The notes under the pieces are model-generated. The model worked only from the letters and a program-made list of their open reading frames with translations, searched no databases and had not been told where the DNA came from. Shown here one piece after another: positions 45,495 through 56,068 of a stretch of 64,000 nt of DNA. The DNA lies in NCBI GenBank assembly GCA_035529595.1, contig DATKWK010000039.1, positions 14,751 to 78,750 on the forward strand. Direction: 5' to 3'. Position 1 is the stretch's first letter. Each line of letters opens with the position of its first letter. The translations under genes and the position numbers were made by a program. Origin of the DNA: Candidatus Bathyarchaeia archaeon. Its GTDB lineage: Bacteria; Patescibacteriota; Microgenomatia; PFEM01; JAFGMK01.

Positions 45495-47828
45495 ATGTTT
45501 TCTCTGGATAGTATCACTGGAAACCTCAATAATTATTTATTGGTTATTGCTATTGCCGTACTGTGTGTTTTAGTTTTTTTTATTCTGATTTATTTATTTC
45601 TTCTTTGGTATCGCAATCGGGAAAGGGAAGAACGGTCTCTGGGTTCAGTACTCCTTCAAGTTGCCGTTCCTTTTAATAACGAGATTAAGATTGATGCTGC
45701 CGAACAGGTCTTTGCCTCGCTCTATTCAATGAAAACCGGAGGCCGGTTTTCATTTTTGAAGCCTCCTAACTTTCTGGCTTTTGAAATCGTTGCGCTTCCG
45801 GAAGACATCCGTTTCTATGTCTCTGTACCGATAGAACTAAGGGATTTTGTCGAGAAGCAAATCTACGGTGCCTATCCCAGTGCCCAAATCTCGGTGGTAC
45901 CCGAATATAATATTTTTAGTGAAGAAGGAAAGGTAGCTTTTACCCAGCTTCAGCTGAAAAACGCCTCTTTTAATCCAATTAAAGCTTATAAAGAACTTAC
46001 AACTGACCCGCTTTCTTCAACTACGGCTGCTTTAGCCAGAATGGATAAAGGAGAGGGAGCCGCAATTCAAATTATCGCTATTCCCAGTTCAGGATGGCAG
46101 CAGTCGGGACGAAGTTATATCTCCAAAACAAAGAAGGAAGAGGCCGATATGGAGAAAGCCAGTTTTAAGATTGACGCCAAAACCCTTGAGGCAATCGAAA
46201 ATAAATGCAGCAAACCGGGTTTTGAGGTAGTCATTCGACTAGTTGTTTGCTCATCTACAATAACAAAGGCTAAAAGCCATCTTGACAATATTAAGGGTGC
46301 CTTTGAACAATTTTCCTCCCATCTCAACAGTTTCGGTAAGGCGAAAGTTTGGTTTAAAAAGTTTTTCATGATCGATTTCATTTATCGTTATATACCCCTC
46401 TTTTATTTTGGCATGAATCGCTCGATTCTTTCATCCGAAGAACTGGCAACGATTTTTCATTTTCCCAATAAGAGTATTGAGACTCCCCATATTCACTGGT
46501 TATACGCTAAATCAGCTCCCGCACCCGCACAAATTTCAAGAAGCGGTCTCTATATCGGTAAATCTACCTATCGGGGTATGAGCCGGCCGGTTTACATCGA
46601 CGAGGGGGATCGTCGCCGGCATGTCTATATTATCGGTAAAACAGGTACCGGCAAAACTGAGTTGCTGAAAGACATGGTGCTTCAGGATATCAGAGACGGG
46701 AAGGGAGTCTGTCTGATTGATCCTCACGATTTGGCCGAAGAAATCCTAAATTTTATTCCTCCTCAGAGAGCTGAAGATGTAATTTTTTTTGATCCCTCGG
46801 ATACCGAACGGCCGATGGGTTTTAACCTTTTGGAAGCTGAAACTGAGCAACAGAAACACTTTGTGAGCAATGCGATCATCGGTTTGATGTATAAACTGTA
46901 TGATCCTTATAAAACCGGTATTATCGGGCCTCGTTTTGAACATGCGATTCGTAATGCGATGTTGACGGTTATGAGCGAACCCGGAAGCACTTTTGTTGAA
47001 GTTGTTCGTTGTTTGACTGACGCTAAGTATGTTCAGGAACTTTTGCCGAAGGTTCAGGATCCGATTATCAGGCGCTATTGGACTGATCAAATTGCTCAAA
47101 CTTCTGATTTTCACAAAAGCGAGGTTCTTGATTATATTGTTTCAAAATTCGGCCGTTTCGTTACCAATAAAATGATGCGTAATATTATTGGTCAATCGAA
47201 GTCAGCCTTTGATTTCCGTCGATCTATGGACGAAGGGAAAATTCTGATCATTAATTTAGCCAAGGGGAAAATCGGTGAGGAGAATAGTTCATTTTTGGGC
47301 TTGGTTTTGGTCCCAAAAATTTTAATTGCTGCGATGAGCCGGGCTGATATTCCTGAGGAAAAAAGGCGGGATTTCTACCTTTATGTTGATGAGTTCCAAA
47401 ACTTTGCCACTCCTGATTTTGCCCAAATTTTGTCTGAAGCGCGAAAATACCGGCTAAGTCTGACGGTGGCCAATCAGTTTATCGGGCAAATGGAGGAAGA
47501 AGTAAAGAATGCGATCTTTGGCAATGTCGGTTCGATTATGACTTTCCGTGTCGGCGTTACTGATGCTTCTTATCTGACTCATGAATTTCAACCTACCTTC
47601 GGCGAAGACGATCTCTTAAATATTGAACGTTATCATATCTATATGAAAACGATAGTTAAAAATGAACCGGTGCCATCTTTTTCGGTTGATCTCTATCGGG
47701 ATATGAAGGGGTTGGAGGCGGTAAGGAATCCGAAAGTGGGGGAGATGATTAAGAATCTATCTCGGTTTAAGTATGCCAAAGACAGGCAATTAGTTGAAGC
47801 AGAAATCAGCCAGAGAGCGAAACTGTAA
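45495..47828 (+). CDS. membrane-anchored P-loop ATPase, VirD4/TraG/TrwB (type IV coupling protein)-like or HerA/FtsK-like
   Basis: N-terminal TM segment; Walker A 'IIGKTGTGKTE'; 'CLIDPHD' (TrwB-like 'DPKGE' position); Walker B 'LYVDEFQNF'; 'ANQFIGQ'. Confidence 0.5.
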   Translation: MFSLDSITGNLNNYLLVIAIAVLCVLVFFILIYLFLLWYRNREREERSLGSVLLQVAVPFNNEIKIDAAEQVFASLYSMKTGGRFSFLKPPNFLAFEIVALPEDIRFYVSVPIELRDFVEKQIYGAYPSAQISVVPEYNIFSEEGKVAFTQLQLKNASFNPIKAYKELTTDPLSSTTAALARMDKGEGAAIQIIAIPSSGWQQSGRSYISKTKKEEADMEKASFKIDAKTLEAIENKCSKPGFEVVIRLVVCSSTITKAKSHLDNIKGAFEQFSSHLNSFGKAKVWFKKFFMIDFIYRYIPLFYFGMNRSILSSEELATIFHFPNKSIETPHIHWLYAKSAPAPAQISRSGLYIGKSTYRGMSRPVYIDEGDRRRHVYIIGKTGTGKTELLKDMVLQDIRDGKGVCLIDPHDLAEEILNFIPPQRAEDVIFFDPSDTERPMGFNLLEAETEQQKHFVSNAIIGLMYKLYDPYKTGIIGPRFEHAIRNAMLTVMSEPGSTFVEVVRCLTDAKYVQELLPKVQDPIIRRYWTDQIAQTSDFHKSEVLDYIVSKFGRFVTNKMMRNIIGQSKSAFDFRRSMDEGKILIINLAKGKIGEENSSFLGLVLVPKILIAAMSRADIPEEKRRDFYLYVDEFQNFATPDFAQILSEARKYRLSLTVANQFIGQMEEEVKNAIFGNVGSIMTFRVGVTDASYLTHEFQPTFGEDDLLNIERYHIYMKTIVKNEPVPSFSVDLYRDMKGLEAVRNPKVGEMIKNLSRFKYAKDRQLVEAEISQRAKL

Positions 47829-47880
47829 AATACCTTTGTTCTTTAGTAATTTTTTCTTCTTTAGTATAATTAACTCGATT

Positions 47881-47952
47881 GCGCCTGTAGCTCAATGGTA
47901 GAGCATTACTCTTATAAAGTAAGGGTTCTTGGTTCGAATCCAAGCAGGCGCA
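47881..47952 (+). tRNA. tRNA-Ile, anticodon UAU
   Basis: Hand-folded cloverleaf: acceptor gcgcctg/caggcgc, D arm gctc-aatggta-gagc, anticodon stem ttact/agtaa with loop c-t-TAT-a-a, T arm cttgg-ttcgaat-ccaag. Confidence 0.65.
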
Positions 47953-47996
47953 CACTCAAAGAAAAGTAAGGAAGGTGCTTGAAAGCCGAAGGATTC

Positions 47997-48866
47997 TTAT
48001 AGCTCTTTAATTTTAATCTCTTCCTGCGATTTGCCTTTAACGAAGTCAAGGTATCTTTCAGTAGTGGAAAGTCGTTTGTGACCAACTAATCTCTGAATTA
48101 GGACGACGGAGTTGCCGGCGGCAAGCTGGTGAGCGATAAAAGTATGGCGCAAATCGTTGACCTTCGCACTCTCAATCCCGGCAATTTTAAAATAGCGTTC
48201 AATAGCACCGCGAATGTTTCTGATCAAAAACGGCCGCCCGCTTTTAGTAATAAAAAGTGACCGTGTTCTTACTTTCGGCCTGATTTTAATATATCGTTCG
48301 AGAGCTTTCTTAGCTGCCTTGTTAAGAGGAATCTTTCTGCTTTTGTGTGATTCGTAAGCTTTGATATCAAGGTAATCGCTCTCAATTTCTCCAATTTCAA
48401 GGCGGGCTAATTCACCAATTCTCATTCCAGTTTGAAGAAGAAGCTCGACAATCGTAGAAATGCGAATATCTTCACGGGCAGCATCGCGAATGGCCCGATA
48501 TTCCATTTGCGAAAGAATTCGAGGGGCTTTTATTTCATATTTGGGATGAGAAACGGAACTGGCCGGATTTTTAACCGTTATGCCTTCTTCTTCTAGAAAT
48601 TTAAAAAAAGTTTTGACAGCGTTCAGTTTTCGAGAGACAGACTTAGCTGTATATTTCTTTTCTAAGAGGTCTTTCTTAAATTCCTCAATATGTTCAGTAA
48701 GAACCGTATCAACTTGAGAAATACCTTTTTCCTTGAGGAAATCGGTCAGTTGTTCAATATCCTTCCGGTATGCTAAAATAGTAGCCTGGGCACGGCTCTT
48801 GTTTTTAAGGTATTTAATAAATTTATCGTGTGCAGCGTCAACCGAAGCGCTAATGCCATTGGTCAT
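47997..48866 (-). CDS. tyrosine site-specific recombinase (XerC/XerD-like, phage-integrase family)
   Basis: N-terminal SAM-like core-binding domain; catalytic 'R...HxxR...Y' region ('LRHTFIAHQLAAG', 'LGHKRLSTTERY'). Its 3' end lies 44 nt from the tRNA-Ile 3' end. Confidence 0.8.
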   Translation of the reverse strand: MTNGISASVDAAHDKFIKYLKNKSRAQATILAYRKDIEQLTDFLKEKGISQVDTVLTEHIEEFKKDLLEKKYTAKSVSRKLNAVKTFFKFLEEEGITVKNPASSVSHPKYEIKAPRILSQMEYRAIRDAAREDIRISTIVELLLQTGMRIGELARLEIGEIESDYLDIKAYESHKSRKIPLNKAAKKALERYIKIRPKVRTRSLFITKSGRPFLIRNIRGAIERYFKIAGIESAKVNDLRHTFIAHQLAAGNSVVLIQRLVGHKRLSTTERYLDFVKGKSQEEIKIKEL

Positions 48867-48997
48867 AAACTTATCTCCGAGAATAATTGTAACCTATAAA
48901 GTTTTCTTATATTAGCAAAAACTGATTTTGCTGTCAAGAGGGAATCTTAATAAACTATGACTGGTGAAAATTAATTCCATTTGATTTAGGAGTTGAA

Positions 48998-49360
48998 TTG
49001 TTTAATAAAAAAGCATTGACGATCTTTACCGTAATTATTGGCAGTTTGCTTATTTTCGGTCTTTCTCGAAATATAATTAGACTTCTTAAGGCTGAGAAAA
49101 AGGTAGATCAAGTACAAAATGAACTAAAAGAGGCTCAAAGCGAACATAGCTTACTTCTAAAGAAGTTCGATTATTTTGAGTCTGAGGTTTTCATCGAGGA
49201 GCAAGCTCGGAATAAATTGAATATGGCTAAAGAAGGGGAATCAGTGGTTATTCTTCCGCCTGATTTTAAGCCGCAAGAAAGAAAAGACGACTTTCAGCTA
49301 CCTCATGATTCTCCTAATTGGAAAAGGTGGTTAGTTACCTTCGGGTTCTTAGACGGCTGA
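48998..49360 (+). CDS. FtsB/DivIC-like septum-formation initiator (TM plus coiled coil)
   Basis: One TM segment, coiled coil, and 'EEQARNKLNMAKEGESVV' resembling the FtsB C-terminal motif. Confidence 0.45.
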   Translation: MFNKKALTIFTVIIGSLLIFGLSRNIIRLLKAEKKVDQVQNELKEAQSEHSLLLKKFDYFESEVFIEEQARNKLNMAKEGESVVILPPDFKPQERKDDFQLPHDSPNWKRWLVTFGFLDG

Positions 49361-49386
49361 AGGAATATTGTTATTCGCAGGCTGAG

Positions 49387-49459
49387 TGCTAGGAGACGGA
49401 TTCGAACCGTCGACCCATCGCTTATGAAACGATTGCTCTACCACTGAGCTATCCTAGCA
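49387..49459 (-). tRNA. tRNA-Met, anticodon CAU (elongator-type stems)
   Basis: Reverse complement folds as gctagga/tcctagc acceptor, GCTCAGTGGTAGAGC D arm, anticodon loop tt-CAT-aa, T arm gacgg-ttcgaat-ccgtc. Confidence 0.75.
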
Positions 49460-49564
49460 AATGGATTAAAGTACTTAAGATTATCTTAGCTGCAGGCATA
49501 TTGGATACCGACTTTTCTCTGATAAAAATAAGGTAAGAGTTCAGATTTACCGACACACTTTGTC

Positions 49565-49613
49565 ATCCTGAACTTGATTCAGGATCTATATAGATTCCGT
49601 GTCAAGCACGGAA
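49565..49613. other. two adjacent perfect hairpins (atcctgaa-cttga-ttcaggat; ttccgtg-tcaag-cacggaa)
   Basis: Read directly from the sequence. They lie between tRNA-Met (-) and the 49752 ORF and may act as bidirectional terminators or a recombination site. Confidence 0.3.
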
Positions 49614-49751
49614 TGACGGAATTGTGTCAAAGGAACTGAACTATTACAAAATAAGTAATTACTAGATTTAGTATTGAGGATAAATTATACTAAACTAATC
49701 GTCTAGAGACAAGAAATCCAGATAATTATTAGTCGTAGCGAAAGATTTTAG

Positions 49752-50447
49752 ATGGACGAGAATCAAATAGGACAAAATTCTTCAAGGGTAACAGTTGCTA
49801 GAGTAGCTAATCCTGGATTGCCAAAGGAAGGAAGCACAGTTGATCGGTTAGAACAACGGGTTTTAGAGTTGTTAGGAGTAAGAGAATCCGGTTTGACATT
49901 AAAGGATTTTGTCAGGCTTCATTACTCAGGCCCTAGTCCATTTGACCCGGCAGCTTTCTTTAAGGATAGTAAATACGATGAATATCGCTGGTACCGAGTG
50001 CAAACTAGAAGTAGGCGAGGACATATAGTTGAGAGCGGGACGACTCTTAATTATGCGGTCACCAGTCAGCGCCAGGAAAGGTTGGTATTGAGCCGAGGAT
50101 TTTCTGTCGGTGGCCCTAGAGGTGCTTCTCGGGAAATGATTCTTTGTTTAAACTATGATTCTCAAACGGCCAAATGGGCTGGAGACGGAGCAATGATTTT
50201 TGTTTCCGAAAAAAGGGGAAAGAAAGAAGGATTTAATAGTATTATTGTCGAATTCAGGGAGGGAAAACCGCTTGAGATTAAAGGTTTAAATGACGTAAGT
50301 TTAGAACAAGGACTGGCAAGAATACAGGAAGATTTCGAGTTGAAGAGTGGCTTCTTCTCAGTCCCCCCACCTGAGTTACTGAATAATTGTCTCGAAGGAA
50401 ATGATCCCATTTCCTTTAAAGAGCTTGATCCGCGCTTACGAGGATGA
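49752..50447 (+). CDS. hypothetical protein (flanked by tRNA genes)
   Basis: Long ORF with no recognised motif. Local composition is somewhat more G+C-rich than its neighbours. Confidence 0.4.
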   Translation: MDENQIGQNSSRVTVARVANPGLPKEGSTVDRLEQRVLELLGVRESGLTLKDFVRLHYSGPSPFDPAAFFKDSKYDEYRWYRVQTRSRRGHIVESGTTLNYAVTSQRQERLVLSRGFSVGGPRGASREMILCLNYDSQTAKWAGDGAMIFVSEKRGKKEGFNSIIVEFREGKPLEIKGLNDVSLEQGLARIQEDFELKSGFFSVPPPELLNNCLEGNDPISFKELDPRLRG

Positions 50448-50495
50448 TATTTTTAGTTGAATATTAAGCTGGTTTTTGTTAGAATATTGCTGACA

Positions 50496-50565
50496 TGCGG
50501 GGTAGTGTACGGCTGCACGTGAGGCTCATAATCTCACAGGCCAGGTTCAACTCCTGGCCCCGCAA
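50496..50565 (+). tRNA. tRNA with anticodon CAU (Met or Ile2-type; 70 nt, short D-loop, U1:A72)
   Basis: Hand fold: acceptor tgcgggg/ccccgca, D stem gtgt/gcac, anticodon stem tgagg/tctca with loop ct-CAT-aa, T arm ccagg-ttcaact-cctgg. Confidence 0.55.
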
Positions 50566-50574
50566 CAAAAATTT

Positions 50575-50599
50575 GGGGGCTTTTGCCCCCTAATTTTTT
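50575..50599 (+). terminator. rho-independent terminator (gggggc-tttt-gccccc + taatttttt)
   Basis: GC-rich perfect stem followed by a U-tract immediately after the tRNA. Confidence 0.6.
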
Positions 50600-50706
50600 G
50601 GCTTGTGGGGCTTAAGGAGTTGAACTAACGGTAAAGTGAGAGAGGAAGTCTGAGTTTCATTGGCACTATGGGAAGAAACAAAAAAAGTAAAGCTAACCGT
50701 GGTGTT

Positions 50707-50722
50707 CTCCTGGCCCCGCAAC
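50707..50722 (+). repeat. 16-nt perfect direct repeat of the tRNA(CAU) 3' end (ctcctggccccgcaac), 156 bp downstream of the original (50551-50566)
   Basis: Read directly from the sequence. This is att-site-like duplication of a tRNA 3' end. Confidence 0.7.
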
Positions 50723-50730
50723 TAGACAAA

Positions 50731-50751
50731 CGCCCATTTCGGGCGTTTTTT
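50731..50751 (+). terminator. rho-independent terminator (cgccc-atttc-gggcg + tttttt)
   Basis: Stem-loop plus T-tract. Confidence 0.5.
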
Positions 50752-50839
50752 CGTCTGGCTTATGGGGGCTAAGGGATCCTGTTTATGTTTTGGGCGGGTT
50801 CTTGAATATTACTCCAGAATTTTTGCTATAATAATCAAA

Positions 50840-52237
50840 ATGACAAGATCAGATATCGGTTTAATTGGGCTTTCGACCATGGGTCAGAATCTGGCCTTGA
50901 ATATCGAAAGAAACGGTTTTAAGATCAGTGTCTTTAACCGGACCGCCGAGATTACCCGTGATTTTACGGCTCAAAAAACCAAAGGCAAAAAATTTTTCCC
51001 CTTTTACTCCCTTGAAAAATTCATTTCTTCCCTTGAAAAACCAAAAAAAATTATTTTACTCATCAAAGCCGGTGAACCAGTCGATGAGATGATTAAGAAA
51101 TTGTTACCGTTTTTAGAAAAAGGCGATCTTTTAATTGATGGCGGTAATTCATTTTTCAGGGATACCGAGAGACGGCAGGAGTTTTTGAAAGAAAAGGGAA
51201 TTGAGTTATTGGGAATGGGCGTAAGCGGAGGAGAAGAGGGAGCGTTAAAAGGTCCAAGTCTGATGCTAGGCGGAGAGAGGCGAGCATTTAAAAAAGCCGA
51301 AGATATTTTAGTAAAGATCTCCGCCAAGTTTAAAGGTGAACCCTGTTGCACTTATTTAGGCCCTCGGGGCGCCGGTCATTTTGTCAAGATGGTTCACAAC
51401 GGTATCGAATATGGGATTATGCAAGCCTTGGGGGAGATCTATGATTTCTTAAAAAATGGCCTTGATTTAAGTCAACAGCAGATTATTAGGGAATTCACTG
51501 TCAGACAAAAAAGTTTGTTTGCTTCTTATTTAATGGAAATATCTCTTGAGGTTTTAAACAATGTTGATTCGGAAACTAGCAAACCCCTGATTGAATCAAT
51601 ATTGGATGAGGCGGAGCAAAAAGGAACCGGTAAATGGACAACTCAAACGGCTCTTGATTTGGGTGTCCCGATCTTAGGCATCTCTTCAGCTGTAGAGGCA
51701 AGAATCATTTCCTCCTGGAAGAAAAAAAGGGAGAGATTGTCATCTCTTTTTCCTAAAAAAGGAATAGAGGCCAATAAGAAGATCGAAATCCAGCTGCTTT
51801 TTGACGCTTTTTTAGCTTCAATTTTGATGATTTATCAGGAGGGTTTTTTTCTTTTGCGTCAGGGATCGGAAGAATTTGGTTATCAGCTTAATTTGGCCCA
51901 AGTTGCCAAAACCTGGCGTGCCGGTTGTATTATCCGGGCCAAGTTAACCGAGAAAATCGCCAGTATTTTGGAAAAATCATCAGAGAATAAGCTGCTTTTA
52001 GAAACATCTTTTTTCCAAAACCAACTGAAGAAACTGGAAAATAGTTGGCGTGAAGTTATTAGTGTCTTTTTAGCTTGCACTATTCCCTGCCCGACGATGA
52101 GTGCTTGTCTGGCAGAATTTGATTCGCTACGCCAAAAGCGTTTAGAATCTGCCAGCTTGATTCAAGGGCTTCGGGACCGTTTTGGTTCTCATGGCTTCAG
52201 GCGGATTGATAAAAAGGGAGATTTTCATGTCGACTGA
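50840..52237 (+). CDS. gnd: 6-phosphogluconate dehydrogenase (decarboxylating)
   Basis: 'IGLIGLSTMGQNLALN' NADP-binding region; 'GMGVSGGEEGA'; 'HFVKMVHNGIEYG'. The ATG at 50840 is preceded by -10-like 'gctataata'; the track ORF begins further upstream. Confidence 0.85.
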   Translation: MTRSDIGLIGLSTMGQNLALNIERNGFKISVFNRTAEITRDFTAQKTKGKKFFPFYSLEKFISSLEKPKKIILLIKAGEPVDEMIKKLLPFLEKGDLLIDGGNSFFRDTERRQEFLKEKGIELLGMGVSGGEEGALKGPSLMLGGERRAFKKAEDILVKISAKFKGEPCCTYLGPRGAGHFVKMVHNGIEYGIMQALGEIYDFLKNGLDLSQQQIIREFTVRQKSLFASYLMEISLEVLNNVDSETSKPLIESILDEAEQKGTGKWTTQTALDLGVPILGISSAVEARIISSWKKKRERLSSLFPKKGIEANKKIEIQLLFDAFLASILMIYQEGFFLLRQGSEEFGYQLNLAQVAKTWRAGCIIRAKLTEKIASILEKSSENKLLLETSFFQNQLKKLENSWREVISVFLACTIPCPTMSACLAEFDSLRQKRLESASLIQGLRDRFGSHGFRRIDKKGDFHVD

Positions 52238-53723
52238 TTGTCAAGCAAAAAATAAAGACTTTTTTTCCCTGGTTTTTGACCTAGGGACAAATAATTTAAA
52301 GCTGGCGATTTTTGGTCAAAATGGCCTCGTGGCCGCCGGGAGAGAGAGTGTTAGATCTGCAGTTACCAACCAGAAGATTGAGGTTGCCGGGCTTCAGGAG
52401 ATATTTCTTAGGGCAATCAAAAAACTCTGGCAGACAGCCGGTAAACCACCTTTACAGGTAATCGGCGGCGTGGGAATAATGCATGGCTTGGCGATTTTTA
52501 ATTCCCGAGAAAGACAGTTTAAGGATTGCTACATTTATTCTAATTTAGAGGCGGGTAACCAGTCTCACCGATTGAAAAAGATTTCCCGGACAGTTTATCA
52601 AAAGAGAGGGGCGCCCCCGTCTTCGGCTTATGGTCCGGAACAGGCGGCTTTGAGAAATAAAAAAGGCGAGTTGTCCAGTTGTCTCCTTTATCCGTCAACG
52701 GCAGTTCTTTTAGGGCCTTTAAGTAATTTACCTCTTGAAATCACCAAGCCGGCACTATCCCATTTGGGATTTTTGGATCTCCAGTCTTTAAAGCTTAACC
52801 AACCGATGCTTAAGTTTGCTTCTTTGTCCGAGGATAATTTTGCAACAATCAGTAAAGATTTTATTGTCGGTAAACTTGATTCCAGATTAGGTAAAAAGCT
52901 CGGTTTTGCTTCCCCTCATGGGGAAATATTATTAATGGACTTAGGCGGTGACGGTCTGATAATTCATGAATTAATTGATAATCCTAAAATCGGCTCTTTT
53001 AAAATCGAAAGTACTGCCGTAGTGCGCCTAGAGACTGAAAAACCGGTTTTGGAAGATATTAATAATGGGGAGATTCCGGTTACCTGGAGTTATTATCATG
53101 AACCGGGACGGTTTATCTGGGGGGCGGCGACTAATGCCGGAGTCCTGACACTAGTAGACTATCTACCCCCTGGTCTAAATCCCAGTTTGGATTTTTATTC
53201 TTTAAACCGGCAGTTAGAAAAAGAATTACTTAGTAAAGGGATTCCCTCAGTCTCGACAATTGGTATCGGTTTACCTTTTTCCCGAGGTGAACGGGCACCT
53301 GGTTGGGTCGGAAAACGACCAACCGGCATCCGAGGTAGAAAGCCGAAAAGTCTCATGTGGCAGCTTTATCTATGGCAAGAGGCGGTGGCTTTTAATCTGA
53401 ATCAGGTAGTCGGGAAGATGAAAGAAGTCGCCCGGGACCGGAAAATAAAATTCCCCAAAGCTTTTTTTATGACCGGCGCTACCAATTATTGGCCGACTTG
53501 GGCTAAGCTTCAAGCTTTGATATGCCAGATTAATTTAGTCAAGTCGGAAATTGAGGAGCCGAATCTATGGGGTGAGGCTAATCGTATCTTAAAATACTTT
53601 GGCCGGCCAACTTTTAAGGCTAAGAAAGGAAGAGTCTATCGTCCGGAAACCAGTAAATACCCCAATTTTAAGAATCTCTCTGAGAGATATCAGTTTTACC
53701 TGAGAGAGTATCAGAAAATTTGA
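52227..53723 (+). CDS. divergent FGGY/ASKHA-family sugar kinase (candidate gluconokinase given the gnd neighbour)
   Basis: N-terminal phosphate-1 motif 'FSLVFDLGTNNLKLAIF'; ~500 aa; the ATG overlaps the gnd 3' end by 11 nt. Confidence 0.4.
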   Translation: MSTDCQAKNKDFFSLVFDLGTNNLKLAIFGQNGLVAAGRESVRSAVTNQKIEVAGLQEIFLRAIKKLWQTAGKPPLQVIGGVGIMHGLAIFNSRERQFKDCYIYSNLEAGNQSHRLKKISRTVYQKRGAPPSSAYGPEQAALRNKKGELSSCLLYPSTAVLLGPLSNLPLEITKPALSHLGFLDLQSLKLNQPMLKFASLSEDNFATISKDFIVGKLDSRLGKKLGFASPHGEILLMDLGGDGLIIHELIDNPKIGSFKIESTAVVRLETEKPVLEDINNGEIPVTWSYYHEPGRFIWGAATNAGVLTLVDYLPPGLNPSLDFYSLNRQLEKELLSKGIPSVSTIGIGLPFSRGERAPGWVGKRPTGIRGRKPKSLMWQLYLWQEAVAFNLNQVVGKMKEVARDRKIKFPKAFFMTGATNYWPTWAKLQALICQINLVKSEIEEPNLWGEANRILKYFGRPTFKAKKGRVYRPETSKYPNFKNLSERYQFYLREYQKI

Positions 53724-53857
53724 CTTTTAGAGAAACTGTGCTATCATAATTTCATTATGACCAGAATAAGCAAGAATATCGTTTGGTGGAACGCCGATTA
53801 GTAGCTTGTCGGCGGTTTTCCGGTGGTCATAAAATAAATTAAAATTTAAAAATTAAG

Positions 53858-53881
53858 AATCCGCTGACAAGCGGATTTTTT
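53858..53881 (+). terminator. rho-independent terminator (aatccgc-tgacaa-gcggatt + tttt)
   Basis: Perfect 7-bp stem and T-tract downstream of the kinase gene. Confidence 0.6.
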
Positions 53882-54155
53882 AATTGTCAAAAAGGAGGGA
53901 AAATGCCATCTCTAACCGAATTATCAACTTCTCGAGGCCCCGTTCCGACCGGGGAGCGGGGTTTAGTTTGGCTATCCTGAAAGCCCCACCTCAAAAGAAC
54001 GATACTTAATTCTTCCTCAGGGAGGGAGAATAAAAGCAGCTGGGGTTTCATTTGGTGCCCTTCATGAAATAGTTGAATCTTATCTTTTCGAGCCATCAGT
54101 AGATTCAGCAGCGAGTGTTTACAGATCATTTCAAGACCTAAGAAAAAACCCGCCT

Positions 54156-55622
54156 TTGCCTATAAGGCGAGCCTTTTTTCCTTTATCGCGGGTGGAAGTT
54201 AAAGCGCTGACTCAAAGTTCTCCCGCCCTTTTGAGACCAATACTTAAGACTGATCAAGGTGCGGGAGGTAATTTTTTGGGCTTCGGAATAGAAGATGAGC
54301 AGGGACCAGCAACTCCGTTGGCATTTTATATAGCTGCTGAAAGCGGTCTTGCGGTAAAAGAAACTTTTTTCGACCAACAATTAAAGGAAAAGGGTATGCC
54401 GAAGCAGGTTTTAGAAGCTGCCAACGAAGTCGAGGATTTGTTTCGATTGAGGAAAGAAGATGAATGTTTCTTAGCCATGGAGCGTCTTTTCATTACTTGT
54501 GAAGAAAATGAAGTTCCTTTTAGCAGGACGGCTGGAGTTGGCAGATTGCCGTTTTTTTTCATTAGGCCAGCTGAAACCTCGACAGGACCGTTAAAACTAC
54601 CTCTATCTCTTGTTGAAGGGATAAGCAGAGAGGCGATTGCTAAAATTGAAGATATTGAACATGCCGCTAGGATTGCCGCGAATTCTATTAGAGAAGGTAC
54701 AGTTGATAGTCTTGAAGAAGCAATCAGTCTCGGGAGAAATTTATTCTCATACCCCCGAACGCTTAGGGGAGAACCTTTAACTCATGAAATTATTTATTGC
54801 CAGCCTGACGTGATTTTAAGAAGTGACGGCAGCTTTGAAATTGAAAGAGTTAATCTTCCTGATGTGGGCCTGTTTCTTACCCAAATAGAAGCGCAAGATC
54901 CTGTTTTTCTCCAAATTCAAGGAATTGCCGGCCAATTAGCGCGGGTAGTGACTAAAAAGATCGCTGCGGAAATAAGAAGAAACGATGTAAGAAGCGCCTG
55001 CATTTTAACCAGAGATAGTGTTTTGTCAAACGGCGAAGACACTTTGGAAATAAGAGAAATAGAGGCTCTAAAAAAACATTTACTTGGTATAGATATCGAG
55101 GTGAGGAGGCTTTCCGAGGCAGAAGAATTGCCAGAGAACACTTTTGTTTTATTACTAAATGTTAATCCTGGTGAACAGGGATTTAATAATTTATTAATAA
55201 GGTTTGCCAGGCAGGAGTTACAATGTTATCCAAACCCTTTCACTTTGCTTTTTAAAGACAGTGTTTCCACTTTGCCAAAAAGAAAACTGGTTCAGAGGGA
55301 AAGAGATATAATCAGAGCGATTGCTGATCCAACGCGAAACACGCCTGAAGACTACTTGCGTCAGCTTCTTGCTTTGGATGGTTTTCTAAATAAGCTTGGA
55401 TTTAGAGACGAGAATATTTTTTATGTTTATGGCAATAACAGAGAAAGACCAGCGGCTGCTTTTCGTTATGACCCGGTCGGATTTACTTTGGCTCTTAAGT
55501 CTTTTTCGGGACAGAGTGAAGTTTTTCTTGAAGGATTAAAATTCCTACCTGGTGATGCTGTTATAATGGGCGCGGACGGACCCCGGTTGGCGGCTTTTAG
55601 ATTTATGTGCGTTAAAAATTAA
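54156..55622 (+). CDS. large hypothetical protein (start uncertain; track start is TTG)
   Basis: Long uninterrupted ORF with no recognised catalytic motif; first in-frame ATG near aa 80. Confidence 0.4.
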   Translation: MPIRRAFFPLSRVEVKALTQSSPALLRPILKTDQGAGGNFLGFGIEDEQGPATPLAFYIAAESGLAVKETFFDQQLKEKGMPKQVLEAANEVEDLFRLRKEDECFLAMERLFITCEENEVPFSRTAGVGRLPFFFIRPAETSTGPLKLPLSLVEGISREAIAKIEDIEHAARIAANSIREGTVDSLEEAISLGRNLFSYPRTLRGEPLTHEIIYCQPDVILRSDGSFEIERVNLPDVGLFLTQIEAQDPVFLQIQGIAGQLARVVTKKIAAEIRRNDVRSACILTRDSVLSNGEDTLEIREIEALKKHLLGIDIEVRRLSEAEELPENTFVLLLNVNPGEQGFNNLLIRFARQELQCYPNPFTLLFKDSVSTLPKRKLVQRERDIIRAIADPTRNTPEDYLRQLLALDGFLNKLGFRDENIFYVYGNNRERPAAAFRYDPVGFTLALKSFSGQSEVFLEGLKFLPGDAVIMGADGPRLAAFRFMCVKN

Positions 55623-55633
55623 ACTTTTATATT

Positions 55634-56068
55634 ATGGCGATAATAAATTTTATTCCTGAGAAAAGCATTTTACCAACAGCTTTTAGGCTGGTTAAAAAAA
55701 GTAAGAAGACTCTTTATTTGACAATGATGATGAAAGAAGAGCTTAAAGCAATTTCGGATGAATATTTAGGTTTAATAAGAAGGAAAATTCAAGAGGGGGT
55801 GTTAATAGAGAGAATTGGTTTTGGCAGTCAGAAAGATTATGAAAAGGCGCTAGTGCAATTGGGATTAAGACCGTTTAAAAATTTTTACTTTAAATATTGC
55901 CCTGATTTAAGAAAAGCACAGCGGTTGCTAGTCTCAGATAAGAAAGAGATGATTTTTGCTGTTTATATGGACCAGGAAAAGAAACTTGTTTTTTATACGA
56001 AGTATAAACCACTGATTCGAGTTTTCTTAGCTTATTTTAAAGAGATTTTTATAGATAGTATATGTTAG
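55634..56068 (+). CDS. hypothetical protein
   Basis: ORF tightly spaced after the previous gene. Confidence 0.35.
   Translation: MAIINFIPEKSILPTAFRLVKKSKKTLYLTMMMKEELKAISDEYLGLIRRKIQEGVLIERIGFGSQKDYEKALVQLGLRPFKNFYFKYCPDLRKAQRLLVSDKKEMIFAVYMDQEKKLVFYTKYKPLIRVFLAYFKEIFIDSIC

What the first reader, a model, noticed from the sequence alone, without database searches (positions are those of the whole stretch)
47881..50760. tRNA/recombinase hotspot: tRNA-Ile(UAU) abutting a tyrosine recombinase, two CAU tRNAs, paired hairpins and an att-like duplication of a tRNA 3' end
Within 2.9 kb there are three tRNA genes on alternating strands. A XerC/D-like tyrosine recombinase lies 44 nt from the tRNA-Ile 3' end, which is the classic integrase–tRNA arrangement. 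Two perfect hairpins sit at 49565-49613. A motif-less ORF (49752-50447) is bracketed by tRNAs. The last 16 nt of the tRNA(CAU) at 50496-50565 ('ctcctggccccgcaac') are repeated exactly at 50707-50722, and each copy is followed by its own intrinsic terminator. A duplicated tRNA 3' end is what remains at attL/attR after integrase-mediated insertion into a tRNA gene. Here only ~140 bp separate the copies, consistent with a deleted or excised element or a tandem att scar. The recombinase may therefore be an island integrase rather than the chromosomal dimer-resolution XerC/D.
Basis: seen in the sequence. Interest (0 to 1): 0.6.

Follow-up and report, generated by a model that had tools for sequence, protein, structure and literature searches.

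The report
tRNA-end-mimicking hairpin behind initiator tRNA
The repeated tRNA end is real. It most likely belongs to a roughly 120-base hairpin-forming unit behind the initiator tRNA gene, built like the E. coli RtT repeats, and not to a leftover integration scar. The neighbouring recombinase is a conserved housekeeping-type gene.

Summary

- **Recombinase.** In all ten related Patescibacteria loci it sits in the same block: DUF8128 ATPase, recombinase, DivIC. tRNA-Ile(UAU) lies beside it wherever that flank was captured. This holds down to 63% identity, and no copy of the tRNA-Ile end exists elsewhere in the window. It is a core Xer-like gene, not an island integrase.
- **16-mer copy 2.** It is the 3' arm of a ~120-nt unit (50603-50722). 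The 5' arm of the unit is an inverted copy of the tRNA-fMet 3' end, so the unit closes with a 15-bp helix that imitates the tRNA's acceptor/T-stem. A truncated second unit follows.
- **Recurrence.** Homologous units occur in relatives L089 and L090, with both repeat copies tracking the local tRNA sequence. Similar units occur in unrelated metagenome contigs.
- **Known analogue.** E. coli tyrT RtT repeats (Rfam RF00391) have the same architecture, but the RtT model does not match this window.

The DivIC-to-TrpRS interval is a genuine rearrangement hotspot, with different cargo, inversions and an optional group I intron in tRNA-fMet. Function is unproven.

The parts
47881..47953 (+). tRNA-Ile(UAU), convergent with the recombinase. 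It lies beside the recombinase in every relative whose contig extends far enough to show that flank.
47997..48866 (-). Xer-like tyrosine recombinase, 289 aa. It is core-syntenic in relatives and not island-borne.
   Evidence: Pfam and NCBIfam matches; homologue list; synteny; active-site alignment to XerD and XerA
48998..49360 (+). DivIC/FtsB-like septum protein. It is the conserved partner gene of the recombinase.
   Evidence: synteny
49386..49458 (-). tRNA(CAU), probably elongator tRNA-Met.
   Evidence: The elongator assignment is an inference: it rests on tRNA-Ile(UAU) being present to read AUA and on the other CAU tRNA being initiator-like.
49533..49648 (.). Imperfect palindrome of about 115 nt. 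Its core is the two hairpins at 49565-49613. It is unique in the window and absent from relatives. Function unknown.
   Evidence: I2; z -5.4; z -4.3
49752..50447 (+). ORF231, an orphan gene inserted between tRNA-Met and tRNA-fMet. It has no family match and no homologue.
   Evidence: the AlphaFold model has pLDDT 43.5 and is uninformative
50457..50485 (+). Promoter-like site TTGAAT-17-TAGAAT with an upstream TG, ending about 10 nt before the tRNA-fMet 5' end.
50496..50565 (+). Initiator-type tRNA(CAU), intronless. The acceptor stem is xGCGGGG/CCCCGCA with discriminator A. Position 1 varies among relatives (C, U or A) opposite a constant A72.
50551..50566 (+). 16-mer copy 1: the end of the T-loop, the T-stem 3' strand, the acceptor 3' strand, discriminator A and the next C.
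50575..50599 (+). Terminator 1: a 6-bp all-GC stem plus T6. It has an A-run upstream and a T-run downstream, so it could act in both directions.
50600..50625 (+). Inverted copy ('anti') of the last ~23 nt of tRNA-fMet: GGCTTGTGGGGCTTAAGGAGTTGAAC. It is the 5' arm of the unit.
   Evidence: Sequence; folds; duplex energy -37.6 kcal/mol against a shuffle mean of -18.9, with 0 of 200 shuffles as good
50603..50722 (+). RtT-like unit of about 120 nt. It closes with a 15-bp helix containing a 2-nt bulge and one U-G pair. The helix pairs 50603-50619 with 50707-50721.
   Evidence: Fold dG -42.5 kcal/mol, z -2.8; the 311-nt context gives z -7
50707..50722 (+). 16-mer copy 2, the 3' arm of the unit.
50728..50752 (+). 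Terminator 2: an 8-bp stem plus T-run.
50757..50776 (+). Degenerate second 'anti' segment, GGCTTATGGGGGCTAAGGGA. It is read here as the start of a truncated second unit.
50840..56068 (+). Lineage-specific cargo between the unit and TrpRS: gnd, an FGGY-like protein, and 448-aa and 144-aa unknowns. Relatives carry other genes at this position.

Best explanation
Two conclusions.

**1. The recombinase.** It is the conserved Xer-type recombinase of this Patescibacteria lineage. It sits in an ancestral gene block and is not an island integrase.

**2. The 16-mer repeat.** It is the 3' arm of an RtT-like trailer unit of the initiator tRNA gene.
- The unit (50603-50722) starts with an inverted copy of the last ~23 nt of the tRNA and ends with a direct copy of the last 16 nt.
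- As RNA on the + strand it therefore folds into a long hairpin.
- The base of the hairpin is a 15-bp helix that imitates the stacked T-stem/acceptor helix of tRNA-fMet, with the same A-C overhang.
- It has its own terminator, and a truncated second unit follows.

**Inferred mechanism.**
- Origin: such units arise and expand by tandem duplication or unequal crossing-over seeded on the tRNA 3' end.
- Expression: when the tRNA terminator is read through, the tRNA-like helix would let RNase P and the 3'-trimming enzymes release the unit. E. coli rtT RNA is released from the tyrT transcript in this way.
- Maintenance: the copy stays identical to the tRNA either by selection for that mimicry or by local sequence homogenisation.

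The anatomy, folding potential, recurrence and co-variation are shown here. Transcription, processing and any cellular role are inferred.

The confidence of 0.5 refers to the RtT-like reading of the repeat. The core-recombinase conclusion on its own is about 0.85.
For: **Recombinase**
- More than 7000 homologues at E<1e-30. The top 120 are about 288 aa long and 57-83% identical, and those that carry a taxon label are Patescibacteria-group.
- The block NrdD/NrdG ... DUF8128 ATPase - tRNA-Ile(TAT) - recombinase - DivIC - tRNAs - TrpRS - FtsH is found in L085, L087, L089, L090, L211-L214, L094 and L219, as far as each contig extends.
- No tRNA-Ile 3' repeat in the window and no second recombinase.

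**Unit**
- Exact 16-mer present twice.
- The inverted arm and the closing helix appear in the folds.
- Complementarity to the tRNA end is far beyond shuffles, 0 of 200.
- Homologous units lie at the same place in L089 (period 150 nt) and L090 (period 161 nt, 21-nt identity).
- Both repeat copies in L089 carry CCTAG, matching its own tRNA, where the window has CCTGG.
- The rest of the intergenic sequence is unalignable between these loci. Sixteen or more identical bases in three lineages therefore imply constraint or homogenisation.
- The same layout (tRNA-fMet, terminator, inverted arm, ~100 nt, direct copy, terminator) occurs in unrelated contigs L147, L148 (2-3 tandem units), L164 and L198. 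The cognate tRNA is the best partner of the interior in 6 of 11 loci.

**E. coli comparison**
- The tyrT locus has four RF00391 RtT units of about 130 nt.
- Each unit ends with the last 19 nt of tRNA-Tyr and begins with the complementary GCGGGGAAGGAT.
- The fold closes in the same way.
- rttR is an annotated 171-nt sRNA there. It is attributed to a repeat unit of the tyrT operon in PMC3318445, citing Bosl and Kersten 1991, and in bioRxiv 10.1101/2024.07.17.603846.
Against: - The Rfam RtT model does not hit the window even at E<=10, so there is no detectable homology to RtT.
- A strong intrinsic terminator lies between the tRNA and the unit, and no convincing promoter precedes the unit. Expression therefore needs read-through. 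In E. coli no terminator intervenes.
- The unit is absent from six of nine recombinase-anchored loci, including two close relatives, L085 and L087. It is dispensable.
- Three pattern-selected loci (L094, L203, L120) have the direct copy without a significant inverted arm.
- The interior of the unit is not conserved, and only one informative base change supports the helix.
- The metagenome examples were selected by a spacing-restricted pattern, so their similar sizes carry no evidential weight.
- There are no expression data.
Confidence: 0.5

Rival explanations
1. **att scar.** An integrase-mobilised element inserted into the tRNA-fMet 3' end and restored the gene. Copy 2 is the displaced original fragment with the original terminator. 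The element's interior was later deleted, leaving about 140 bp.
For: - The copies are direct repeats. The identity block starts inside the T-loop and stops at the tRNA end, as in tDNA islands (principle described in PMC4383910).
- Relatives with an 'empty' tRNA-fMet exist: L085, L087 and L211-L214.
- The adjacent region carries lineage-specific cargo, and gnd has no close Patescibacteria relative among the top 80 hits.
- L094 has a toxin-antitoxin pair next to copy 2.
Against: - There is no integrase or any ORF between the copies.
- The cargo lies outside the repeat pair, and no third copy bounds it.
- Only 2 of the 7 T-loop bases are shared in the window, although a crossover region should be fully identical.
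- The model does not predict the inverted arm, which tracks the local tRNA in several lineages.
- It does not predict the near-constant 150-161-nt period in three loci that were not selected by spacing.
- It does not predict tandem reiteration of whole units in L148.
- The E. coli RtT units have the same layout without being att sites.
Confidence: 0.2
2. **Neutral tandem duplication.** Slippage or unequal exchange duplicated the tRNA 3' end and its trailer. The structure has no function and is decaying.
For: - The layout [16-mer][terminator][GGCTTRTGGGG..AAGG] occurs about 1.4 times in tandem.
- The distribution among relatives is patchy.
- The interior is not conserved.
- Other contigs show simple longer tandem duplications: L125, L176 and L111.
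Against: - Divergence within the unit is very uneven. The 16-mer is 16/16 identical and the 'anti' piece about 85% identical, whereas the terminators are unalignable.
- Three diverged lineages each keep copy 2 identical to their own tRNA.
- The inverted arm is not produced by direct duplication.
Confidence: 0.15
3. **Small non-autonomous foldback element.** The unit targets the tRNA-fMet 3' end. Its two inverted target-like arms fold in single-stranded DNA into a mimic of the target duplex, in the way CTX phage does with XerCD at dif. The neighbouring Xer-like recombinase would recombine it.
For: - The arms are inverted copies of the target, separated by about 80-90 nt.
- Tandem copies occur in L148.
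- Presence among relatives is patchy.
- A Xer-type recombinase lies 1.7 kb away.
- Inversions and rearrangements cluster here.
Against: - No copy of the unit exists elsewhere in the window.
- The arms match the local tRNA rather than a common element consensus.
- There is no replication or mobilisation gene.
- The two L148 loci belong to a larger segmental duplication.
- The analogy with CTX comes from memory and was not tested.
Confidence: 0.07
4. **Minus-strand small RNA.** It would start near 50722 and end at the bidirectional terminator 1. Its 5' end (GUUGCGGGGCCAGGAG) would be perfectly antisense to the tRNA-fMet 3' end.
For: - Terminator 1 is also scored as a terminator on the minus strand.
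- The 16-mer complement is exact.
Against: - The conserved U-G pair in the closing helix of the window, L089 and L090 would become a C-A mismatch on the minus strand.
- No minus-strand promoter-like site was found just right of 50722.
- Terminator 2 is oriented for the + strand.
Confidence: 0.05

Closest known systems
RtT RNA / tyrT 178-bp repeats of E. coli (Rfam RF00391; rttR sRNA, tpr)
   Same: - Lies directly downstream of a tRNA gene on the same strand.
- The unit is about 120-130 nt long.
- The 3' end repeats the last 16-19 nt of that tRNA, starting inside the T-loop.
- The 5' segment is complementary to that end, giving a closing acceptor/T-like helix.
- The units can be reiterated in tandem (searches compared).
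   Different: - There is no sequence or covariance-model similarity.
- The attached tRNA is initiator tRNA, not tRNA-Tyr.
- The host is a Patescibacteria-type genome, not an enterobacterium.
- A strong intrinsic terminator separates the tRNA from the unit, and each unit has its own terminator.
- There are only about 1.4 units here, against 3-4 in E. coli.
- Expression is unknown.
attL/attR of tRNA-gene genomic islands (displaced tDNA fragment; Islander, PMC4383910)
   Same: - An intact tRNA gene plus a direct repeat of its 3' end.
- The identity block runs from the T-loop to the tRNA end.
- The locus is variable among relatives.
   Different: - No integrase or cargo lies between the copies (140 bp).
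- An inverted arm is present.
- The period is conserved in relatives.
- The cargo lies outside the repeat pair and has no distal repeat.
XerC/XerD/XerA-type chromosome dimer resolution recombinases
   Same: - Two-domain architecture (SAM-like N-terminal domain plus catalytic domain).
- Best matches are XerC, XerD and XerA models and structures.
- The catalytic R, K, R, H and Y residues align.
- The gene lies in a conserved core context next to a cell-division gene.
   Different: - Scores are about half the NCBIfam equivalog cut-offs (165 against 330-335 bits).
- The first His of the HxxR box aligns with Asn.
- No dif site was identified.
- Only 64 kb of the genome was seen.
Group I introns in cyanobacterial tRNA-fMet genes (recalled from the literature, not tested against those sequences)
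   Same: Six relatives (L087, L089, L090, L094, L211, L212) carry an RF00028 group I intron in the anticodon loop of the orthologous initiator tRNA.
   Different: The window's own tRNA-fMet is intronless. The intron is independent of the RtT-like unit, because all four presence/absence combinations occur among the loci.

Membership tests
RtT RNA (Rfam RF00391) | Match to the covariance model at or above the gathering score (45 bits) | tested here: not met
   No RtT hit in 47700-51000 even at E<=10. The positive control, E. coli, scores 133-137 bits four times.
RtT RNA (Rfam RF00391) | Unit immediately downstream of a tRNA gene, ending with a copy of that tRNA's 3'-terminal ~19 nt | tested here: met
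   The 16-nt exact copy ends the unit at 50722. E. coli has a 19-nt copy.
RtT RNA (Rfam RF00391) | 5' segment complementary to the tRNA-like 3' end, closing the RNA in a long helix | tested here: met
   15-bp helix between 50603-50619 and 50707-50721 in the MFE and centroid folds. The same closure appears in E. coli rttR.
RtT RNA (Rfam RF00391) | Tandem reiteration of the unit | tested here: inconclusive
   The window has one full unit plus a degenerate start of a second at 50757-50776. L148 has 2-3 full units.
RtT RNA (Rfam RF00391) | Co-transcribed with the tRNA and processed to a stable small RNA | not testable with these tools
   No expression data. An intrinsic terminator intervenes between the tRNA and the unit.
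tDNA island att pair (integrase-mediated insertion) | Intact tRNA gene plus displaced 3' fragment in direct orientation | tested here: met
tDNA island att pair (integrase-mediated insertion) | Integrase gene and foreign cargo lying between the two copies | tested here: not met
   140 bp lie between the copies and hold no ORF of 50 aa or more. The cargo genes lie beyond copy 2, and no third copy bounds them.
tDNA island att pair (integrase-mediated insertion) | Identity block covers the whole crossover region (here the 7-nt T-loop) and empty sites exist in relatives | tested here: inconclusive
   Only 2 of 7 T-loop bases are shared in the window, against 7 of 7 in L090. Relatives without copy 2 exist, but loss of the unit explains that equally well.
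Island or phage integrase using the adjacent tRNA-Ile | Direct repeat of the tRNA-Ile 3' end at a distal boundary | tested here: not met
   The last 20 nt of tRNA-Ile occur once in 64 kb, even with 3 mismatches allowed.
Island or phage integrase using the adjacent tRNA-Ile | Presence/absence polymorphism of the integrase and its neighbours among related genomes | tested here: not met
   The recombinase is present with the same neighbours in all ten related loci, at 63-83% identity.
XerC/XerD (NCBIfam TIGR02224/TIGR02225 equivalogs) | Score above the curated equivalog cut-off | tested here: not met
   165.4 and 164.1 bits against cut-offs of 335 and 330. It is Xer-like, but it cannot be assigned to either equivalog.
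XerC/XerD (NCBIfam TIGR02224/TIGR02225 equivalogs) | Catalytic R-K-H-R-H-Y residues | tested here: inconclusive
   R, K, R, H and Y align with XerD and XerA. The first His aligns with Asn or a gap.
XerC/XerD (NCBIfam TIGR02224/TIGR02225 equivalogs) | Acts at a dif site near the terminus with FtsK | not testable with these tools
   No classical dif core in the window. The rest of the genome was not available.

The most novel reading that the evidence does not exclude
Initiator tRNA genes in distant bacterial lineages (Patescibacteria and at least one high-GC lineage) are followed by RtT-like units. These units are processed into stable ~120-nt RNAs that display an exact mimic of the tRNA-fMet acceptor/T-arm. 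They would form a widespread, undescribed class of tRNA-mimic trailer RNAs. Possible roles include titrating enzymes that read the initiator acceptor arm (RNase P, the CCA-adding enzyme, formyltransferase) or feeding into starvation responses, as has been proposed for E. coli rtT.
Probability: 0.2. Interest if true: 0.65.

Novelty: new variant of a known kind. Interest (0 to 1): 0.42.

Why it matters
- **Annotation caution.** A short repeat of a tRNA 3' end is not automatically an att scar, and a tyrosine recombinase next to a tRNA is not automatically an island integrase. Conserved synteny settles the second point here.
- **Possible wider class.** The E. coli tyrT/RtT arrangement has long been treated as an enterobacterial curiosity. 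Finding the same architecture behind initiator tRNA genes in ultra-small Patescibacteria genomes and in other metagenomic lineages suggests it may be general. It could be either a structural by-product of tRNA gene evolution or a class of tRNA-mimicking trailer RNAs.
- **Locus for further study.** The site is a compact natural example of tRNA-centred genome plasticity. It shows cargo turnover, inversions, an optional group I intron in tRNA-fMet, and tRNA-Ile(UAU).

Tried and rejected
- **Genome-contig scan spent on gnd.** All hits were 50% identical or less and came from unrelated phyla. This gave no synteny information. It only suggests that gnd is foreign here.
- **ORF231.** The homologue search found only the protein itself. 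Pfam, NCBIfam and PHROGs gave nothing. The single-sequence AlphaFold model had pLDDT 43.5, so no fold search was run.
- **Rfam.** Nothing besides the three tRNAs was found in the region at E<=10. That rules out SRP RNA, tmRNA, Y-RNA-like, RtT and other curated families for the unit and the palindrome.
- **Viral search for the 21-mer.** The single hit, L210, is a tRNA array of a high-GC phage, not an attP.
- **Metagenome pattern scan.** Only about 12 of 119 involve tRNA-fMet.
- **Contigs of the closest recombinase relatives (L215-L217, L219-L220).** They end before the tRNA-fMet region and were uninformative.
- **Ideas considered and rejected:**
  - A tRNA with a long insert: no tRNA-model hit, and no D-arm or T-arm.
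  - An integron attC: the R'/R'' consensus is not matched, and the recombinase lacks integron-integrase features (71 bits).
  - A leader for gnd: relatives have different genes after the unit.
  - A small basic ORF across copy 2: it is not conserved and it spans terminator 2.
- **Classical dif core.** Not found.
- **Bosl and Kersten 1991.** The paper could not be read.

Full report
**1. Observation**

ARAGORN and Rfam agree on three tRNA genes:
- tRNA-Ile(TAT), 47881-47953 (+)
- tRNA(CAT), 49386-49458 (-)
- tRNA(CAT), 50496-50565 (+)

- The 289-aa ORF at 47997-48866 (-) is a tyrosine recombinase with a SAM-like N-terminal domain. It ends 44 nt from the tRNA-Ile 3' end.
- CTCCTGGCCCCGCAAC occurs exactly twice, at 50551-50566 and 50707-50722. 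No other match exists in 64 kb even with three mismatches allowed.
- Each copy is followed by a hairpin plus T-run.
- Both copies are also present in an independent Logan assembly, L002. The repeat is therefore not an assembly artefact.
- The two hairpins at 49565-49613 exist and are unique in the window.
- ORF 49752-50447 has no family match and no homologue other than itself among 5.8 billion proteins.

**2. The recombinase is core, not island-borne**

It matches XerC, XerD and XerA models best, but at about half the equivalog cut-offs. R, K, R, H and Y of the active site align with XerD and XerA. The first His of the HxxR box aligns with Asn.

It has more than 7000 homologues at E<1e-30. 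The best 120 are nearly all 288 aa long and 57-83% identical. Those that carry a taxon label are Patescibacteria, Microgenomates or Pacebacteria.

I fetched the genomic context of ten of these homologues and found an eleventh relative, L094, through a DNA pattern search. The same block recurs in every one, as far as each contig extends:
- NrdD, NrdG, a small ORF and a DUF8128/TraG-like ATPase on one side;
- then tRNA-Ile(TAT), the recombinase and DivIC;
- then tRNAs, TrpRS and FtsH on the other side.

This holds down to 63% recombinase identity (tRNAs).

The last 20 nt of tRNA-Ile are not repeated anywhere in the window. No second tyrosine recombinase is present. The integrase-next-to-tRNA picture is therefore ancestral synteny.

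**3. What the 16-mer repeat belongs to**

Reading the sequence shows what lies right after terminator 1 (stem 50575-50590, T-run to 50599). The segment 50600-50625, GGCTTGTGGGGCTTAAGGAGTTGAAC, is the reverse complement of the last ~23 nt of the tRNA, with one G-to-A change that gives a U-G pair and a 2-nt bulge.
- It can pair with the tRNA's own 3' end across terminator 1.
- It can also pair with copy 2, through 15 bp between 50603-50619 and 50707-50721.

The 136-nt stretch folds with that closing helix (dG -42.5 kcal/mol, z -2.8). The 311-nt context has z -7.

After copy 2 come terminator 2 and then GGCTTATGGGGGCTAAGGGA (50757-50776). This is a degenerate second copy of the inverted arm. The layout is thus [tRNA end][terminator][inverted arm][~85 nt][tRNA end][terminator][inverted arm, degenerate], or about 1.4 tandem units.

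Within this repeat the 16-mer is 16/16 identical and the arm is about 85% identical. The terminators are unalignable. Such uneven divergence argues against simple neutral decay.

**4. Relatives**

Among nine loci chosen only by the recombinase, the second copy is present in three:
- the window (period 156 nt, 16-nt identity);
- L089 (period 150 nt, 16-nt identity);
- L090 (period 161 nt, 21-nt identity).

It is absent from L085, L087 and L211-L214.

L089 and the window share the 5' arm sequence GGGCTTAAGGAGTTGAAC. Otherwise the interiors and terminators do not align.

In L089 the tRNA T-stem reads CCTAG where the window has CCTGG. Both L089 repeat copies carry CCTAG. Each lineage thus keeps copy 2 identical to its own tRNA, even though the surrounding intergenic DNA has diverged beyond alignment.

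**5. Wider occurrence**

I ran a metagenome scan for GCCCCGCAAC, 130-160 nt, GCCCCGCAAC.

It nevertheless returned further cases in which an initiator tRNA is followed by a non-tRNA copy of its last 13-22 nt. These are L094 and L203 (the same Patescibacteria tRNA type) and L120, L125, L147, L148, L164 and L198.

In L147, L148, L164 and L198 the stretch after the first terminator contains the reverse complement of that locus's own T-loop:
- GGAATCGAACC in L147;
- GGACTTGAACC in L148;
- GGATTTAAA in L164;
- GGACTTGAAC in L198.

RNAduplex of each tRNA 3' end against each interior gave two results:
- The cognate tRNA is the best partner in 6 of 11 loci and second best in 2.
- The cognate energy beats at least 190 of 200 shuffles in 7 loci.

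L094, L203 and L120 lack a significant arm.

L148, from a high-GC organism, has two to three complete tandem units behind each of two tRNA-fMet genes.

The spacing of these pattern-selected cases carries no weight as evidence, because the pattern imposed it.

**6. Closest known thing**

From memory, the E. coli tyrT operon carries 178-bp repeats that each contain the end of tRNA-Tyr. I checked this in MG1655 (L218).
- The annotation shows tyrT, tyrV, the 171-nt sRNA rttR and tpr.
- Rfam finds four RtT units (RF00391, a 130-nt model, 133-137 bits each).
- Each unit ends with AATCCTTCCCCCACCACCA, the last 19 nt of tRNA-Tyr, and contains GCGGGGAAGGAT upstream, its complement.
- The rttR fold closes with exactly that helix.

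This is the same architecture as 50603-50722: similar size, a 3' tRNA-end copy that starts in the T-loop, a complementary 5' arm, and tandem reiteration.

Two papers attribute rttR to a repeat unit of the tyrT operon. One of them also attributes to it a role in tyrT transcript processing and a possible role in the stringent response. They are PMC3318445, citing Bosl and Kersten 1991, and bioRxiv 10.1101/2024.07.17.603846. The original paper could not be read.

The RtT model does not match the window at E<=10. The window's unit is therefore an analogue, not a family member.

**7. Mechanism, and how sure**

My best reading (about 0.5) is an RtT-like trailer unit of the initiator tRNA.
- It is generated and resized by duplication or unequal exchange on the tRNA 3' end.
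- If it is transcribed by read-through of terminator 1, it folds so that its base imitates the acceptor/T-stem minihelix.
- tRNA-processing enzymes can then release it.

The anatomy, folding potential, recurrence, co-variation and the E. coli parallel are shown here. Transcription, processing and function are inferred.

Several things weaken this reading: the strong intervening terminator, the lack of a promoter-like site before the unit, absence from close relatives, and the non-conserved interior.

The rivals are:
- An att scar (about 0.2). It remains possible because the identity block runs from the T-loop to the tRNA end and the locus is variable. It does not explain the missing integrase and cargo between the copies, the inverted arm, the constant period or the tandem units.
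- A neutral tandem duplication (0.15).
- A foldback mini-element, possibly Xer-dependent (0.07).
- A minus-strand antisense RNA (0.05). It is disfavoured because the conserved U-G pair would become a C-A mismatch on that strand.

**8. The locus is nevertheless a hotspot**

Between DivIC and TrpRS every genome differs.
- Window: ORF231, gnd (best hits only 50% identical, from Chloroflexi-type MAGs), an FGGY-like protein, and 448-aa and 144-aa unknowns.
- L085: a nitroreductase and a 301-aa ORF.
- L087: nothing.
- L089, L211, L212 and L090: a conserved HTH protein of 227 to 270 aa.
- L094: a PIN toxin-antitoxin pair.

The orientation of tRNA-fMet and tRNA-Met relative to DivIC also differs among the loci. 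The whole fMet-ORF-Met segment is inverted between L211 and L212.

The orthologous tRNA-fMet carries a group I intron in its anticodon loop in six relatives (RF00028, 55-73 bits). ARAGORN misses these genes.

**9. The hairpins and ORF231**

The two hairpins form the core of a ~115-nt imperfect palindrome at about 49533-49648. Its z-scores are -5.4 as minus-strand RNA and -4.3 as DNA. It is absent from relatives.

It lies downstream of a minus-strand promoter-like site at 49712-49684. That site shares TTTAGTATAATT with the sequence just upstream of tRNA-Ile. Its role is unexplained.

ORF231 is an orphan. It occupies the position where relatives have either nothing or the HTH protein. The structure prediction was uninformative.

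**10. Verdict**

- The unit is a new variant of a known kind. It is RtT-like in architecture, on a different tRNA and in a different phylum, without detectable homology.
- Interest is moderate. It would be higher if the unit proves to be an expressed tRNA-fMet mimic found widely.

Noticed in passing
L087 6076-6262, L089 6047-6253 (-), L090 5934-6138, L094 8063-8264 (-), L211 2143-2349, L212 5320-5553 (-); compare window 50496-50565: In six relatives the orthologous initiator tRNA gene is interrupted in the anticodon loop by a group I intron of about 200-230 nt (Rfam RF00028, 55-73 bits). ARAGORN fails to call these genes. The window, L085, L203, L213 and L214 are intronless. Two short Logan contigs that carry ORF231 end at about 50527, which is the intron insertion point.
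   Followed up: partly
L089 5054-5737 (-), L090 4894-5706 (-), L211 2471-3154 (+), L212 4514-5197 (-): A conserved protein of 227-270 aa lies next to tRNA-fMet. The four copies are 59-79% identical to each other. It has an N-terminal HTH domain, with weak HTH_38 and TnsD-like matches. It is present only in intron-containing loci (4 of 5 recombinase-anchored ones) and in none of the intronless loci. It may be an intron-associated or mobile-element protein.
   Followed up: partly
It is unique in the window and absent from relatives. It lies between a minus-strand promoter-like site (49712-49684, sharing TTTAGTATAATT with the tRNA-Ile upstream region) and tRNA-Met. Logan contigs break at its centre.
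   Followed up: partly
window 47881-47953 and the orthologous position in L085, L087, L090, L094, L211, L213, L214: tRNA-Ile with anticodon UAU is conserved beside the recombinase. To my knowledge most bacteria read AUA with a lysidine-modified CAU tRNA instead. This lineage may therefore lack TilS, but that was not checked.
   Followed up: no
window 50840-52237 (gnd) and 52227-56068: The best relatives of 6-phosphogluconate dehydrogenase among 185,000 species genomes are only 50% identical or less and come from Chloroflexi-type and other non-Patescibacteria MAGs. The next three genes have no confident family assignment; the first gives only sub-threshold FGGY kinase matches. The block is absent from all syntenic relatives, so it is probably horizontally acquired cargo.
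   Followed up: partly
whole window (protein names): NCBI names the proteins of this contig as 'Candidatus Bathyarchaeia archaeon'. The gene content (DivIC, bacterial tRNAs, FtsH) is bacterial, and the nearest relatives that carry a taxon label are Patescibacteria. The contig looks mis-binned.
   Followed up: no
L211 2123-3217 compared with L212 4451-5573; also L213/L214 compared with L085/L087/L090: The segment that carries tRNA-fMet, the HTH ORF and tRNA-Met is inverted between close relatives. The tRNA pair has three different orientation states relative to DivIC across the clade. No flanking inverted repeats were identified.
   Followed up: partly
L148 4554-5480: A high-GC metagenome contig has two tRNA-fMet genes. 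Each is followed by two to three complete 155-nt units made of a terminator, an inverted T-arm copy and a tRNA 3'-end copy. It is the clearest tandem example of the architecture outside E. coli.
   Followed up: partly
L090 5822-5870: An extra 5' fragment of tRNA-fMet (GTGCGGGGTAGTGG, followed by a GC hairpin) lies about 90 nt upstream of the real intron-containing gene. It is another partial tRNA copy at this locus.
   Followed up: no
L123 and L124: These contigs carry arrays of 31 and 10 overlapping pattern matches, with GCCCCGCAAC recurring about every 72-78 nt. ARAGORN finds no tRNAs in them. They are probably CRISPR-like or other tandem arrays and are unrelated to the finding.
   Followed up: no
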